From Escherichia coli (GTDB lineage Bacteria; Pseudomonadota; Gammaproteobacteria; Enterobacterales; Enterobacteriaceae), in the NCBI RefSeq assembly GCF_003018115.1, contig NZ_CP027457.1: a stretch of DNA of 64,000 bases; one strand, given 5' to 3'. The position numbers and the translations under genes are program-made. The notes under the pieces were generated by a model, which was not told the DNA's origin, ran no database searches, and worked only from the letters and a program-made list of their open reading frames with translations. Positions 56,890 through 57,762 of the stretch are shown one piece after another (position 1 is the first letter of the stretch; each line of letters opens with the position of its first letter).

Positions 56890-56922
56890 CCCAAAAACAA
56901 CAGGCACCCCGGAGGGTGCCTG
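56890..56922 (-). terminator. Candidate intrinsic terminator immediately upstream of J on the tail-operon strand
   Basis: Hairpin caggcacc-ccggag-ggtgcctg followed on the minus strand by TTGTTTTTGGG. Confidence 0.45.
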
Positions 56923-56957
56923 TGTCATGACGGAATAAAATTTCTGAAATTCTTCAC

Positions 56958-57087
56958 ATTTCTGCAAATTGCCTGTAGCCGCAATAATGACGCTGCGTTA
57001 CTTTTTTGATGCCTGAAAAATAACTCCATAACGTTAATCTTCATCGTTCTCTCCCGCAGCTCCGCTGACTCTGCGGGATTTTTTTAT
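56958..57087 (+). ncRNA. Candidate small RNA, repeat unit 1
   Basis: Promoter-like segment to hairpin cccgcagctccgctgactctgcggg + T7; no ORF; 5' end is a guess. Confidence 0.3.
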
Positions 57088-57174
57088 CCCTTAAACCCGG
57101 CCTGATATTTTCTGTCCTCTGCCACCGATATCCCGCAGCCCCTTCCTGTGAATAAAAATTCTGAATTTATTCAC

Positions 57175-57317
57175 ATTTCTGCAAATTACCTGTGGCACTC
57201 ATAATCACCATACGTTACAATTCACCCGCTGATTACAGGCAATAATCAAAACTACTCCTTAAGGTGACTATTCGTTTCTCCCGTCAATATCCAGGTGTAT
57301 TACGGGAGATTTTTTAA
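57175..57317 (+). ncRNA. Candidate small RNA, repeat unit 2
   Basis: Palindrome GTGAATAAAAATTCTGAATTTATTCAC, CATAAT -10-like element, hairpin ctcccgtcaatatccaggtgtattacgggag + T6. Confidence 0.3.
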
Positions 57318-57407
57318 TTCCCCCCTCAGTATCACGGACATTACTGACGCCACTCTGTCGCCAGAGACGAATGTACGGGATAAATAAAAACTCTGATTTT
57401 CTTCACA

Positions 57408-57539
57408 TTTTCCGTCATTCTCCGTGGCAGAGTGCATTCCGGCAGGTTACAGTTTCTTCGGGTCAATAAAAATAAAACGCCAACAGGTTAGTCAACATCG
57501 TTCTCTTCCCGCAGCACGGAGTACTGCGGGATTTTTTTA
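57408..57539 (+). ncRNA. Candidate small RNA, repeat unit 3
   Basis: Degenerate palindrome, hairpin cccgcagcacggagtactgcggg + T7. Confidence 0.3.
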
Positions 57540-57628
57540 TCCCCTTAACCCGGCATGATGCCTTCTGTCCTCTGCCACCGATATCCGGCCCCTCCCTTCC
57601 CGTGAATAAAAATTCTGAGTTTATTCAC

Positions 57629-57760
57629 ATTTCCGCACACTGACTGTAGTGCTCATAATCACGCTGCGTTACAGTTCATCTGCCAGAATAATGAAAAATT
57701 CCTTAAAGTTAATCTTCGTATCTCTTCCCGCAGCCGCCGAGCACTGCGGGATTTTTTTAT
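57629..57760 (+). ncRNA. Candidate small RNA, repeat unit 4
   Basis: Palindrome GTGAATAAAAATTCTGAGTTTATTCAC, CATAAT, hairpin cccgcagccgccgagcactgcggg + T7. Confidence 0.3.
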
Positions 57761-57762
57761 TT

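What the first reader, a model, noticed from the sequence alone, without database searches (positions are those of the whole stretch)
56890..57762. Array of four promoter-to-terminator units between tail genes I and J, antisense to the tail operon
In phage lambda the I stop abuts the J start. Here about 0.9 kb of non-coding DNA separates them. It holds four tandem ~225-bp units. Each has an imperfect palindrome (GTGAATAAA-N9-TTTATTCAC in units 2 and 4), a CATAAT-like element, a partly conserved core (...cgttaca...aaaa..ccttaa.gt.a.tcttcgt.tctc) and a GC hairpin plus T7 run reading as an intrinsic terminator on the plus strand, opposite to the late operon. No ORF is conserved between units. The simplest reading is four paralogous ~130-nt small RNAs with their own promoters, a moron-like sRNA cassette. 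Conserved ends with divergent middles would fit shared scaffolds with different targeting regions. I recall prophage-encoded Hfq-binding sRNAs in pathogenic E. coli but cannot confirm that any map here.
Basis: partly seen in the sequence, partly recalled or inferred. Interest (0 to 1): 0.75.

Follow-up and report, generated by a model that had tools for sequence, protein, structure and literature searches.

The report
Four tandem PasB-family prophage sRNA genes
The 0.9-kb gap between two phage tail genes holds four diverged copies of a small regulatory RNA gene already known from pathogenic E. coli prophages (PasB / EcOnc22), which normally carry one copy, so this is a new arrangement of a known regulator rather than a new kind of element.

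Summary
The I-J spacer (56850-57762, 913 bp) holds four head-to-tail units of 217-232 bp on the strand opposite the tail operon.

Each unit is a homologue of a validated Hfq-dependent sRNA gene that sits in this same slot in other lambdoid prophages. These are PasB of EPEC E2348/69 and EcOnc22/23/24 of EHEC Sakai. A covariance model built only from single-copy loci finds exactly four hits in the 64-kb window. The RNA part of unit 1 is 99% identical to the EcOnc22 unit, and published CLASH reads map exactly to it.

The predicted RNAs are 75-88 nt, not about 130 nt. The likely promoter is -35 GTRGYN, an 18-bp spacer, then -10 TAnnnT. The CATAAT element lies inside that spacer.

The most conserved block is TCTGA-N6-TCACATTT, centred at -60.5 in all four units. 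I infer, but have not shown, a class I CRP site.

Arrays are uncommon. Most loci have one unit, some have two or three, and none has more than four. The four-unit array is in 66 of 5,426 complete E. coli genomes and in none of 50,697 phage records. Unit types recombine in different orders.

No expression data exist for units 2-4. This is a new variant of a known kind, of moderate interest.

The parts
53163..56849 (-). Tail tip / host-specificity gene J. The GTG start is at 56849.
   Evidence: ORF list. The N-terminus [22 protein letters not shown] matches lambda J. The RefSeq CDS in strain W24 has the same ends.
56850..56935 (-). J leader on the tail-operon strand. It has a terminator-like hairpin at 56900-56923 (10 bp, 7 GC) followed by TGTTTTTGGG, upstream of the J ribosome-binding site. 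This is the ancestral part of the spacer.
   Evidence: Terminator scan and fold. Lambda's 60-bp I-J spacer has an analogous hairpin plus T-run. The segment is conserved in 66 of the fetched loci.
56943..57004 (+). Unit 1 promoter region. CRP-like box TCTGAAATTCTTCACATTT at 56943-56961 (centre -60.5). -35 GTAGCC at 56975-56980. 18-bp spacer containing AATAAT. -10 TACTTT at 56999-57004.
   Evidence: The geometry was read from the sequence.
57011..57085 (+). sRNA gene 1 (type A, equivalent to EcOnc22/23/24), predicted 75 nt. Seed region AACUCCAUAACGUUAAUCUUC. Terminator CCCGCAG (57053-57059) / CUGCGGG (57071-57077) followed by U7.
   Evidence: Covariance-model hit with E 6e-16. The RNA part is 99% identical to the Sakai unit. 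CLASH reads start exactly at 57011. Fold.
57160..57221 (+). Unit 2 promoter region. CRP-like box at 57160-57178, inside the palindrome 57148-57174. -35 GTGGCA at 57192-57197. 18-bp spacer containing CATAAT. -10 TACAAT at 57216-57221.
   Evidence: The promoter scan found GTGGCA-18-TACAAT. Box.
57228..57315 (+). sRNA gene 2 (type D), predicted 88 nt. Seed region ACUCCUUAAGGUGACUAUUC. It has a different terminator stem, CUCCCGU (57278-57284) / ACGGGAG (57302-57308), followed by U6.
   Evidence: Covariance-model hit with E 4e-3 and nhmmer hit of 120.9 bits. The fold shows the terminator. Type D also occurs in 2- and 3-unit arrays.
57392..57453 (+). Unit 3 promoter region. CRP-like box at 57392-57410. 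-35 GTGGCA at 57424-57429. 18-bp spacer in which the TATAAT-like element has degenerated to GTGCAT. -10 TACAGT at 57448-57453.
57460..57538 (+). sRNA gene 3 (type E), predicted 79 nt. Seed region AACGCCAACAGGUUAGUCAAC. Terminator 57508-57514 / 57524-57530 followed by U7.
   Evidence: Covariance-model hit with E 9e-9. Fold. The same RNA body sits behind a different promoter in L014.
57614..57675 (+). Unit 4 promoter region. CRP-like box at 57614-57632, inside the palindrome 57602-57628. -35 GTAGTG at 57646-57651. 18-bp spacer containing CATAAT. -10 TACAGT at 57670-57675.
57682..57758 (+). sRNA gene 4 (type F), predicted 77 nt. Seed region AUUCCUUAAAGUUAAUCUUC. Terminator 57727-57733 / 57744-57750 followed by U7, which ends 5 nt before the I stop codon.
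   Evidence: Covariance-model hit with E 1e-12. Fold. Type F is the sole unit in L005 and L006.
57763..58344 (-). Tail assembly gene I. The stop codon is 57763-57765.
   Evidence: ORF list and RefSeq annotation of identical DNA.

Best explanation
The I-J spacer carries four independent, diverged genes of the PasB / EcOnc22 family of prophage-encoded, Hfq-binding, trans-acting small RNAs.

Each unit is a self-contained transcription unit on the strand opposite the late tail operon. It has:
- an upstream protein-binding box, TCTGA-N6-TCACATTT, centred at -60.5;
- a weak -35 (GTRGYN), an 18-bp spacer and a -10 of the form TAnnnT;
- a G start;
- a largely unstructured RNA of 75-88 nt with an A-rich tract, then a CUCC/UUCC-containing variable seed, then a conserved UUAAUCUUC-like core and a U/C-rich stretch;
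- a GC hairpin with a U6-U7 tail.

In a lysogen the four RNAs would be made from their own promoters while the late operon is silent. They would bind Hfq through the terminator and U-tail and the A-rich tract. They would pair through their different seeds with different host and prophage mRNAs. Because all four share the upstream box at the same distance, they would respond to one signal, and I infer cAMP-CRP (class I activation). On this reading the array widens the target set of one catabolite-controlled regulator.

The array most likely arose by unequal recombination between the conserved promoter and terminator blocks of I-J cassettes in co-resident lambdoid prophages.

What is shown: the homology, the position, the anatomy, and expression plus Hfq binding of the PasB and type A homologues. 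What is inferred: expression of units 2-4, distinct target sets, CRP control and the origin by recombination.
For: Position and homology:
- PasB (NC_011601 1466343-1466261, 83 nt, northern-validated, Hfq-dependent, second RNA in nearly all chimeras, U-tract of 7, 37 interactions) lies in the 240-bp I-J spacer of prophage PP6, antisense to the tail genes. That spacer aligns along its length with each window unit.
- Sakai EcOnc22/23/24 are Hfq-CRAC peaks antisense to the tail operon in the I-J spacers of Sp15, Sp14 and Sp11. Northern band about 85 nt, destabilised without hfq. The coordinate shift of about +137 between the two Sakai assemblies was checked with AgvB.
- CLASH hybrid reads carry GCCTGAAAAATAACTCCATAACGTTAATCTTCA, which is window 57011-57043 exactly.
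- Model R1, built from 17 single-copy loci, gives exactly four + strand hits in the window and none in lambda.

RNA anatomy:
- The only consensus structure is the terminator hairpin, and the rest is single-stranded, as is typical of Hfq sRNAs.

Promoter:
- TAnnnT and GTRGYN are kept in all 56 distinct family members, whereas the TATAAT-like element decays in some lineages.
- The start predicted 7 nt after the hexamer coincides with the 5' end of the CLASH reads (57011) and, within 1 nt, with PasB's mapped 5' end.

Upstream box:
- It is the most conserved segment, with mean pairwise identity 0.83 against 0.48-0.73 for the RNA segments.
- It occurs four times against 0.05 expected and sits at -60.5 in all four units (read from the sequence).
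- It matches 9 of 10 core positions of TGTGA-N6-TCACA, the established CRP consensus.
- PasB is higher in overnight LB than in DMEM, the opposite of the CRP-repressed Spf.

Seeds:
- The CLASH duplex with yjbJ uses CCAUAACGUU of type A (-22.7 kcal/mol). Units 2-4 cannot form it through the same region.

Recombination:
- Arrays of 1-4 units carry different type orders: A-D-E-F, A-E-F, A-E, D-A, D-F', D-C'-F'. Promoter, body and loop combinations are mosaic.
Against: - There are no expression, 5'/3'-end or Hfq data for units 2, 3 or 4, or for any array-bearing strain.
- Unit 2 matches the model only weakly (27 bits, E 4e-3).
- If the TATAAT-like element is the real -10, unit 3 (GTGCAT) would be poorly transcribed.
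- The physiological function of PasB and EcOnc22 is itself unknown.
- The CLASH hybrids are 1-2 reads and not statistically significant.
- The CRP assignment rests on a motif alone. The left half-site has C where CRP prefers G. The centre is at -60.5 rather than the canonical -61.5. Cra (TGAA-N4-TTCA) fits part of the box. The LB versus DMEM difference also fits RpoS or growth-phase control.
- The array is near-identical (97.8-100%) in all 66 genomes, so conservation says nothing about selection on each unit.
Confidence: 0.75

Rival explanations
1. The RNAs act mainly in cis as antisense RNAs. Each is perfectly complementary to the I-J intercistronic part of the late polycistronic mRNA. Pairing, followed by RNase III cleavage or interference from convergent transcription, would tune or silence expression of J and downstream genes. 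That could affect the resident prophage or related phages carrying the same unit types.
For: The units are convergent with the tail operon and lie inside it. Every one of the 80 close I homologues sampled carries at least one unit at this position. Unit types in the array also occur as sole units in other phages, so cross-pairing with their late transcripts is possible.
Against: PasB has 37 trans partners, 30 of them CDS or 5'UTR regions, and behaves as a canonical second RNA in RIL-seq chimeras. EcOnc22/23 form hybrids with a chromosomal mRNA. The sRNAs do not overlap the J ribosome-binding site, which is more than 150 nt away. They are expressed in lysogens, where the late operon is off. The RNA would also target its own phage.
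Confidence: 0.12
2. Only one unit (unit 1, the EcOnc22 type) is a working gene. Units 2-4 are recombination by-products that are decaying or silent.
For: The array is rare: 66 of 5,426 genomes and no sequenced phage. Unit 2 scores low. Unit 3 has lost the TATAAT-like element. The inter-unit junction DNA has no known origin.
Against: All four units keep the box, -35, TAnnnT, G start, hairpin and U-run at identical spacing. Types D, E and F also occur elsewhere with intact features, and E and F occur behind other promoters or as the sole unit. Differences between array copies fall mostly in terminator loops and spacers.
Confidence: 0.1
3. The units encode small proteins, or are remnants of an insertion sequence, MITE or other repeat element, rather than sRNA genes.
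For: Mechanical ORFs of 40-73 codons exist on both strands.
Against: No ORF is shared between units. Close variants differ by indels that are not multiples of three. Stop-free stretches are at most 68 codons. No Rfam family matches at gathering score, and only one weak sub-threshold match (E 1.4) touches the spacer. There are no terminal inverted repeats. The family is confined to this one slot in Escherichia lambdoid prophages.
Confidence: 0.03

Closest known systems
PasB (pathogenicity-associated sRNA B) of EPEC O127:H6 E2348/69 prophage PP6 (Pearl Mizrahi et al. 2021, PMC8550237; Zhu, Shabalina and Storz 2026 preprint)
   Same: It occupies the same slot, the I-J spacer antisense to the tail genes. 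It has the same unit architecture: box, -35, -10, A-rich tract, CUCC seed, UCUUC core, CCCGCAG/CUGCGGG hairpin and U7. It aligns with every window unit and was used to build the model that finds all four.
   Different: PasB is a single copy in a 240-bp spacer. Its RNA is only 47-73% identical to the four window RNAs, and the seed differs (CUCCUUCACAUUGAUC). The 2026 survey used a 28-nt word size and at least 75% query coverage. It reports only a few nucleotide differences among PasB variants and usually one variant per genome. It does not mention tandem copies of PasB, EcOnc RNAs, promoters or CRP.
EcOnc22 / EcOnc23 / EcOnc24 of EHEC O157:H7 Sakai prophages Sp15 (Stx1), Sp14 and Sp11 (Tree et al. 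2014, PMC4104026; Waters et al. 2017, PMC5286369)
   Same: Same slot and same strand. The RNA part of unit 1 is 99% identical, and the CLASH read sequence is identical to window 57011-57043.
   Different: There is one unit per prophage, and their function is listed as unknown. The library text searched here does not link them to PasB.
AgvB / AsxR 'anti-sRNAs' (Rfam RF02702, RF02703)
   Same: They are prophage-encoded, Hfq-bound and short, with a conserved 3' part and a variable 5' targeting part.
   Different: They lie at the PR' moron site downstream of Q, not in the tail operon. They are 51-60 nt. No Rfam match occurs in the spacer, although the same scan finds AgvB in Sakai. There is no evidence that the window RNAs sponge other sRNAs.
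Tandem or multicopy paralogous sRNAs such as OmrA/OmrB, PrrF1/PrrF2 and Qrr1-5 (cited in the 2026 preprint; otherwise from my own knowledge)
   Same: These are adjacent or multiple paralogues with a shared regulatory input, partly shared scaffolds and diverged pairing regions.
   Different: Those are chromosomal core genes with two adjacent copies (Qrr copies are dispersed). Here four copies sit inside a phage structural operon. Copy number varies from 1 to 4 between prophages, and unit types are shuffled.
Lambdoid morons, including the sodC moron in the same I-J slot
   Same: This is extra DNA between genes that are nearly adjacent in lambda (60-bp spacer). It has its own promoter and terminator and is expressed from the prophage. 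sodC occupies the same slot in 14 of 80 sampled loci.
   Different: The cargo is non-coding and is iterated.

Membership tests
PasB / EcOnc22 prophage sRNA family | The gene lies in the spacer between tail genes I and J of a lambdoid prophage, on the strand opposite the tail operon. | tested here: met
   Window: I at 57763-58344 (-), J at 53163-56849 (-), units on +. PasB and EcOnc22-24 have the same layout.
PasB / EcOnc22 prophage sRNA family | Sequence and structure homology to PasB and EcOnc22. | tested here: met
   Covariance model R1, built from 17 single-copy loci including PasB and the Sakai unit and excluding the window and all arrays, gives four hits: 93, 27, 56 and 76 bits with E 6e-16, 4e-3, 9e-9 and 1e-12. 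Unit 2 is the weak one. nhmmer on the whole unit supports it at 120.9 bits.
PasB / EcOnc22 prophage sRNA family | Rho-independent terminator with a U-tract of at least 4 (a criterion used to call PasB). | tested here: met
   All four units fold into a 7-8-bp GC hairpin followed by U6-U7.
PasB / EcOnc22 prophage sRNA family | A discrete transcript of about 80-85 nt in lysogens. | not testable with these tools
   This is shown for PasB (83 nt) and EcOnc22 (about 85 nt) in the literature. CLASH reads identical to unit 1 exist. There are no data for units 2-4.
PasB / EcOnc22 prophage sRNA family | Hfq binding and Hfq-dependent stability. | not testable with these tools
   This is shown for PasB and EcOnc22. 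For the window units only the sequence features are present: U-tail, a U/C-rich stretch before the hairpin, and an A-rich tract.
AgvB/AsxR anti-sRNA family (RF02702/RF02703) | A match to the Rfam models and a location at the PR' moron site. | tested here: not met
   No AgvB or AsxR match in the spacer at E up to 10. The location is the tail operon. AgvB is detected by the same tool in Sakai.
Class I CRP-dependent promoter | A TGTGA-N6-TCACA site centred near -61.5 upstream of a promoter with a weak -35. | tested here: inconclusive
   TCTGA-N6-TCACATTT matches 9 of 10 core positions and is invariant in the family. It is centred at -60.5 from the predicted start in all four units, and the -35 is GTRGYN. 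CRP binding and cAMP dependence cannot be tested here. PasB's LB versus DMEM pattern is consistent but not specific.
Moron (lambdoid 'more DNA' cassette) | An insertion between genes that are adjacent in related phages, with its own promoter and terminator, expressed from the prophage. | tested here: met
   Lambda's I-J spacer is 60 bp and has no unit. Promoter and terminator are predicted for each unit. Prophage expression is shown only for the homologues.

The most novel reading that the evidence does not exclude
The array is a library of antisense RNAs aimed at other lambdoid phages. Each unit type is also the sole I-J cassette of other prophages or phages. A lysogen expressing four types would therefore carry RNAs fully complementary to the I-J junction of the late transcripts of several rival or co-resident phages, and could cut down their production of the J tail tip. 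Recombinational gain of units would then be a form of inter-phage competition. A milder version is that the slot is an expandable, shuffled cassette array that lets a tail module carry a changeable set of catabolite-controlled host regulators.
Probability: 0.07. Interest if true: 0.7.

Novelty: new variant of a known kind. Interest (0 to 1): 0.4.

Why it matters
Prophage sRNAs of pathogenic E. coli are known to rewire host regulation, but PasB and EcOnc22-24 have no assigned function. This locus adds four things.

- **One family.** The EPEC and EHEC RNAs belong to a single family tied to one slot of the tail operon.
- **More diversity than surveyed.** I count at least eight seed types, more than BLAST-based surveys have captured.
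- **Multiplication and shuffling.** Units occur in arrays of up to four, and up to eight array-borne copies occur in one genome.
- **A shared upstream box.** All members carry an invariant box at a fixed distance. This gives a directly testable regulatory hypothesis, cAMP-CRP control.

If the four RNAs have distinct targets, the array is a natural experiment in how horizontally acquired sRNA regulons expand. The carriers listed in the searches are mostly Shiga-toxin-producing or cattle-associated strains, such as O91, O178:H19 and O22:H8.

Tried and rejected
- **Rfam.** Nothing in the spacer at gathering threshold, and only a chance-level match (Arrc14, E 1.4) at E up to 10.
- **Tandem Repeats Finder.** No array was reported because the units are too diverged.
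- **AgvB/AsxR identity.** Rejected: different locus and no model match.
- **Other Pas sRNAs.** PasA, PasC and PasD lie near Q, holin or esterase genes, not here.
- **CATAAT/TATAAT as the -10.** Rejected as the main promoter. It decays in some lineages. It would put the box at about -44.5. It predicts RNAs of about 100 nt, against the mapped 83 nt and the CLASH 5' ends.
- **Other readings of the palindrome.** These are my own consensus comparisons. An ARG box fits units 2 and 4 (17 of 18 positions) but not the family consensus. Sigma-54 GG-N10-GC does not fit. I also considered LexA, Fur, FNR, Lrp, OmpR and RcsAB and dropped them. Cra fits partly.
- **Conserved RNA structure beyond the terminator.** None was found, and there was no covariation.
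- **Origin of the inter-unit junction DNA.** No match in 50,697 phage records, and within fetched loci it occurs only in arrays. The idea that it is a remnant of an I gene 3' end could not be supported.
- **Wider taxonomic range.** A pattern scan of one genome per species found only E. albertii plus two probable contaminant contigs.
- **Arrays larger than four.** None among 200 IMG/VR loci or among the listed E. coli hits.
- **PasB target motif.** None is listed in the RIL-seq motif table.
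Full report
**What is in the sequence**

The window carries the tail end of a lambdoid prophage on the minus strand. Gene I ends with its stop codon at 57763-57765. Gene J starts with GTG at 56849, and its N-terminus [22 protein letters not shown] matches lambda J. RefSeq annotation of identical DNA in strains JNE141411 and W24 gives the same gene ends and leaves the DNA between them unannotated. 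The spacer is therefore 56850-57762, 913 bp.

The repeat finder reports three repeat families with four copies each, spaced 217-232 bp apart. Tandem Repeats Finder reports nothing at that period. That fits units that are only 50-68% identical to one another. Rfam has no family here. No ORF is shared between units, and close variants of the units differ by indels of 1, 2, 4 and 5 nt.

Two corrections apply. The first 85 bp of the spacer are the J leader rather than part of a unit. Lambda does not have I abutting J; it has a 60-bp spacer.

**What the units are**

A literature search led to two sets of experimentally detected RNAs in this same slot.

The first is PasB of EPEC E2348/69. It is 83 nt, lies on the minus strand at 1466343-1466261, was validated by northern blot, depends on Hfq for stability and has 37 RIL-seq partners. 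It lies in the 240-bp spacer between the tail assembly gene and gpJ of prophage PP6, antisense to both. That spacer aligns end to end with each of the four window units.

The second set is EcOnc22, EcOnc23 and EcOnc24 of EHEC Sakai. These are Hfq-CRAC peaks. EcOnc22 gave a northern band of about 85 nt that is destabilised without hfq. All three lie in the I-J spacers of Sp15, Sp14 and Sp11 on the strand opposite the tail genes.

The published coordinates refer to an older Sakai assembly. AgvB shows a shift of about +137 to +146 between the assemblies, and that shift places the peaks on the sRNA body. The RNase E-CLASH table of Waters et al. settles the point. The EcOnc22/23/24 halves of the hybrid reads read GCCTGAAAAATAACTCCATAACGTTAATCTTCA. 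That string occurs once in the window, at 57011-57043.

The RNA part of unit 1 is 99% identical to the Sakai unit and 69% identical to PasB. Units 2-4 are 42-73% identical to each other, to unit 1 and to PasB.

**An independent membership test**

I collected I-J spacers from 80 IMG/VR prophage loci that encode close relatives of this I protein and extracted the units. I then built a covariance model from 17 distinct RNAs taken only from single-unit loci, including PasB and the Sakai unit.

Searched against the whole 64-kb window, the model gives exactly four hits, all on the plus strand:

| Hit | Coordinates | Bits | E-value |
|---|---|---|---|
| Unit 1 | 57003-57086 | 93 | 6e-16 |
| Unit 2 | 57234-57315 | 27 | 4e-3 |
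| Unit 3 | 57457-57539 | 56 | 9e-9 |
| Unit 4 | 57678-57759 | 76 | 1e-12 |

It finds nothing in lambda. Unit 2 is the outlier. It has a different but equivalent terminator stem, CUCCCGU/ACGGGAG. Whole-unit nhmmer supports it strongly.

**Anatomy of one unit**

The only conserved RNA structure is the terminator hairpin, which has 7 invariant pairs in the single-unit set. The rest of each RNA is predicted to be mostly single-stranded. From 5' to 3' the RNA has:
- a short GC-rich start;
- an A-rich tract;
- a variable segment containing CUCC or UUCC (an anti-Shine-Dalgarno-like motif);
- a conserved UUAAUCUUC-like core;
- a U/C-rich stretch;
- the hairpin and U6-U7.

These are the standard features of Hfq-binding sRNAs. 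That statement rests on established knowledge, and Tree et al. discuss the same features.

**The promoter**

The 56-sequence alignment shows that TAnnnT is kept in every lineage, as TACTTT, TACAAT, TACAGT, TAGTGT, TAATGT, TAGATT and others. GTRGYN lies 18 bp upstream of it. The promoter scan independently reported GTGGCA-18-TACAAT for unit 2.

The base 7 nt after this hexamer is a G in all four units: 57011, 57228, 57460 and 57682. For unit 1 this G is exactly where the three CLASH reads begin. For PasB the equivalent G is 1 nt from the reported 5' end.

It has decayed in some lineages: GTGCAT in unit 3 and AACCTT in some type D units. I cannot exclude that it is a second promoter.

With these start sites the RNAs are 75, 88, 79 and 77 nt, not about 130 nt.

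**The upstream box**

The most conserved part of the whole unit is not the RNA. It is TCTGA-N6-TCACATTT. Mean pairwise identity among 16 lineage representatives is 0.83 for that segment, against 0.48-0.73 for the RNA segments. The box occurs four times in the window against 0.05 expected. Its centre is 60.5 bp upstream of the predicted start in all four units (read from the sequence). The longer palindrome in units 2 and 4 is an extension of this box.

The box matches 9 of 10 core positions of the CRP consensus TGTGA-N6-TCACA, plus the TTT flank. With a weak -35, this is the geometry of a class I CRP-dependent promoter. That comparison rests on established knowledge and is my inference.

PasB is higher in overnight static LB than in exponential DMEM. 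The CRP-repressed Spf shows the opposite pattern in the same data set. This is consistent with CRP control but not specific to it. Cra, or a growth-phase regulator, remains possible. I put CRP control at about 0.5.

**How common the array is**

- **Sequenced phages.** In 50,697 phage records, 147 match, and the listed matches span about 240-260 bp of the record. None covers 80% of the array.
- **Complete E. coli genomes.** About 800 of 5,426 genomes have at least one unit detectable with this query. Sixty-six carry the four-unit array at 97.8-100% identity. The listed carriers are mostly Shiga-toxin-producing or bovine isolates.
- **Different integration sites.** The array occurs in prophages at ompW in JNE141411 and at yecD in W24, which matches the window's gene ends.
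- **Two arrays in one genome.** JNE151685 has two four-unit arrays in two prophages.
- **IMG/VR, sampled by I protein.** Every one of the 80 close I homologues has at least one unit. Seventy have one unit, seven have two, one has three and two have four.
- **IMG/VR, sampled by motif.** Among 120 loci found by a motif scan there were 110 singles, 4 doubles, 2 triples, 5 quadruples and nothing larger.
- **Other species.** A scan of one genome per species found the motif only in E. albertii and two likely contaminant contigs. This agrees with the published restriction of Pas sRNAs to Escherichia and Shigella.

**Shuffling of unit types**

By RNA body I distinguish at least eight types. These labels are mine: A is the EcOnc22 type, B is PasB, and C-H are the others. 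Arrays combine them in different orders:
- A-D-E-F in the window, L010 and L013;
- A-E-F in L094;
- A-E in L014;
- D-A in L008;
- D-F' in L012;
- D-C'-F' in L016.

The same RNA body also occurs behind different promoter variants and with different terminator loops. This pattern points to unequal homologous recombination between the conserved box, promoter and terminator blocks of cassettes in different prophages. That origin is inferred.

The DNA between units has no match in the phage collection, and its origin is unexplained.

**How it most likely works**

Each unit is an autonomous moron-like transcription unit. It is expressed from the prophage while the late operon is silent. Its product is an Hfq-binding sRNA that pairs in trans through the variable segment.

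The only direct hint for a seed comes from the CLASH hybrids between EcOnc22/23 and the yjbJ coding region. CCAUAACGUU of type A pairs with AACGUUAUGG, with a predicted duplex energy of -22.7 kcal/mol. Units 2-4 cannot form this pairing through the equivalent region. These hybrids are 1-2 reads and not statistically significant.

Four units with one shared upstream box and four different seeds would give one signal a wider target set. The main rivals are listed in the Rival explanations section with their tests. They are a cis-antisense role on the late I-J transcript, and silent, decaying duplicates.

**Comparison with what is known, and verdict**

The units are members of the PasB / EcOnc22 family. 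Position, homology and terminator were tested and met. Expression and Hfq binding are shown only for homologues. The units are not AgvB/AsxR anti-sRNAs.

As far as the held literature shows, four points are new:
- the tandem arrangement of two to four diverged paralogues;
- the link between the EPEC PasB and the EHEC EcOnc22-24;
- the breadth of seed types;
- the invariant CRP-like box.

This is a new variant of a known kind. It is a sound and useful observation of moderate interest (0.4), not a new class of element.

Noticed in passing
L036 3074-3933 (also L023, L040, L042, L050, L059, L060, L063, L066, L067, L070, L072, L075, L079): In 14 of 80 sampled prophages the I-J spacer is 857 bp. It holds a sodC (Cu/Zn superoxide dismutase) moron antisense to the tail operon. 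After sodC comes a complete PasB-family RNA body and terminator, from its -10 onward, that lacks the CRP-like box and the -35. This could be an sRNA derived from the sodC 3'UTR.
   Followed up: partly
window 56900-56923 (minus strand); lambda NC_001416 15445-15504 (L091): A terminator-like hairpin plus T-run lies on the tail-operon strand just upstream of the J ribosome-binding site. Lambda's 60-bp I-J spacer has an analogous hairpin (CCGCC-TGCG-GGCGG followed by TTTTGTCATTT). The sRNA cassettes are inserted between the I stop codon and this hairpin. Its role is unknown; it could be an insulator read through by Q-modified polymerase, or an mRNA-stability element.
   Followed up: partly
L092 and L093 (E. 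coli JNE151685, NZ_AP027258.1): One genome carries two four-unit arrays in two different prophages, giving eight array-borne PasB-family genes. JNEC-KY175 (L094) has a three-unit array that lacks the type D unit.
   Followed up: yes
window 57087-57147, 57316-57385, 57540-57600: The inter-unit junction DNA has no match in 50,697 phage records, and among fetched loci it occurs only in arrays. Junctions 1-2 and 3-4 are 89% alike. The reverse-strand translation ...DIGGRGQKISGRV* faintly recalls an I C-terminus, but no such I allele was found.
   Followed up: partly
L045 3074-3424 (also L046, L048, L054, L056, L057, L071, L083): A spacer class of about 348 bp has one PasB-type unit plus an extra 100 bp or so on the J side. 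The extra DNA has its own strong hairpin flanked by A-runs and T-runs (AAACCCCGGTATC-AGCA-GATACCGGGGTTTTCTTTC).
   Followed up: no
window 20743-20887 (+), 20747-20846 (-), 4795-5255 (-), 42013-42088 (-): Rfam gathering-score hits elsewhere in the window: SraC/RyeA with the overlapping antisense SdsR/RyeB, a cspA-type thermoregulator 5'UTR, and naRNA4. These are ordinary core-genome RNAs.
   Followed up: no
L090 (E. coli W24, identical spacer), locus 20914-21494 and 15975-16115: RefSeq marks gene I of W24 as a frameshifted pseudogene. It also annotates a Hok/Gef family toxin gene between J and the tail-fibre gene, where other prophages have lom.
   Followed up: no
L084 728-982 (Sakai Sp10): STnc100 (+) and AgvB (-) lie tail to tail at the PR' moron site. 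Coordinates in Tree et al. 2014 are offset by about 137-146 bp from the current Sakai RefSeq record. Anyone mapping the EcOnc RNAs needs to allow for this.
   Followed up: yes
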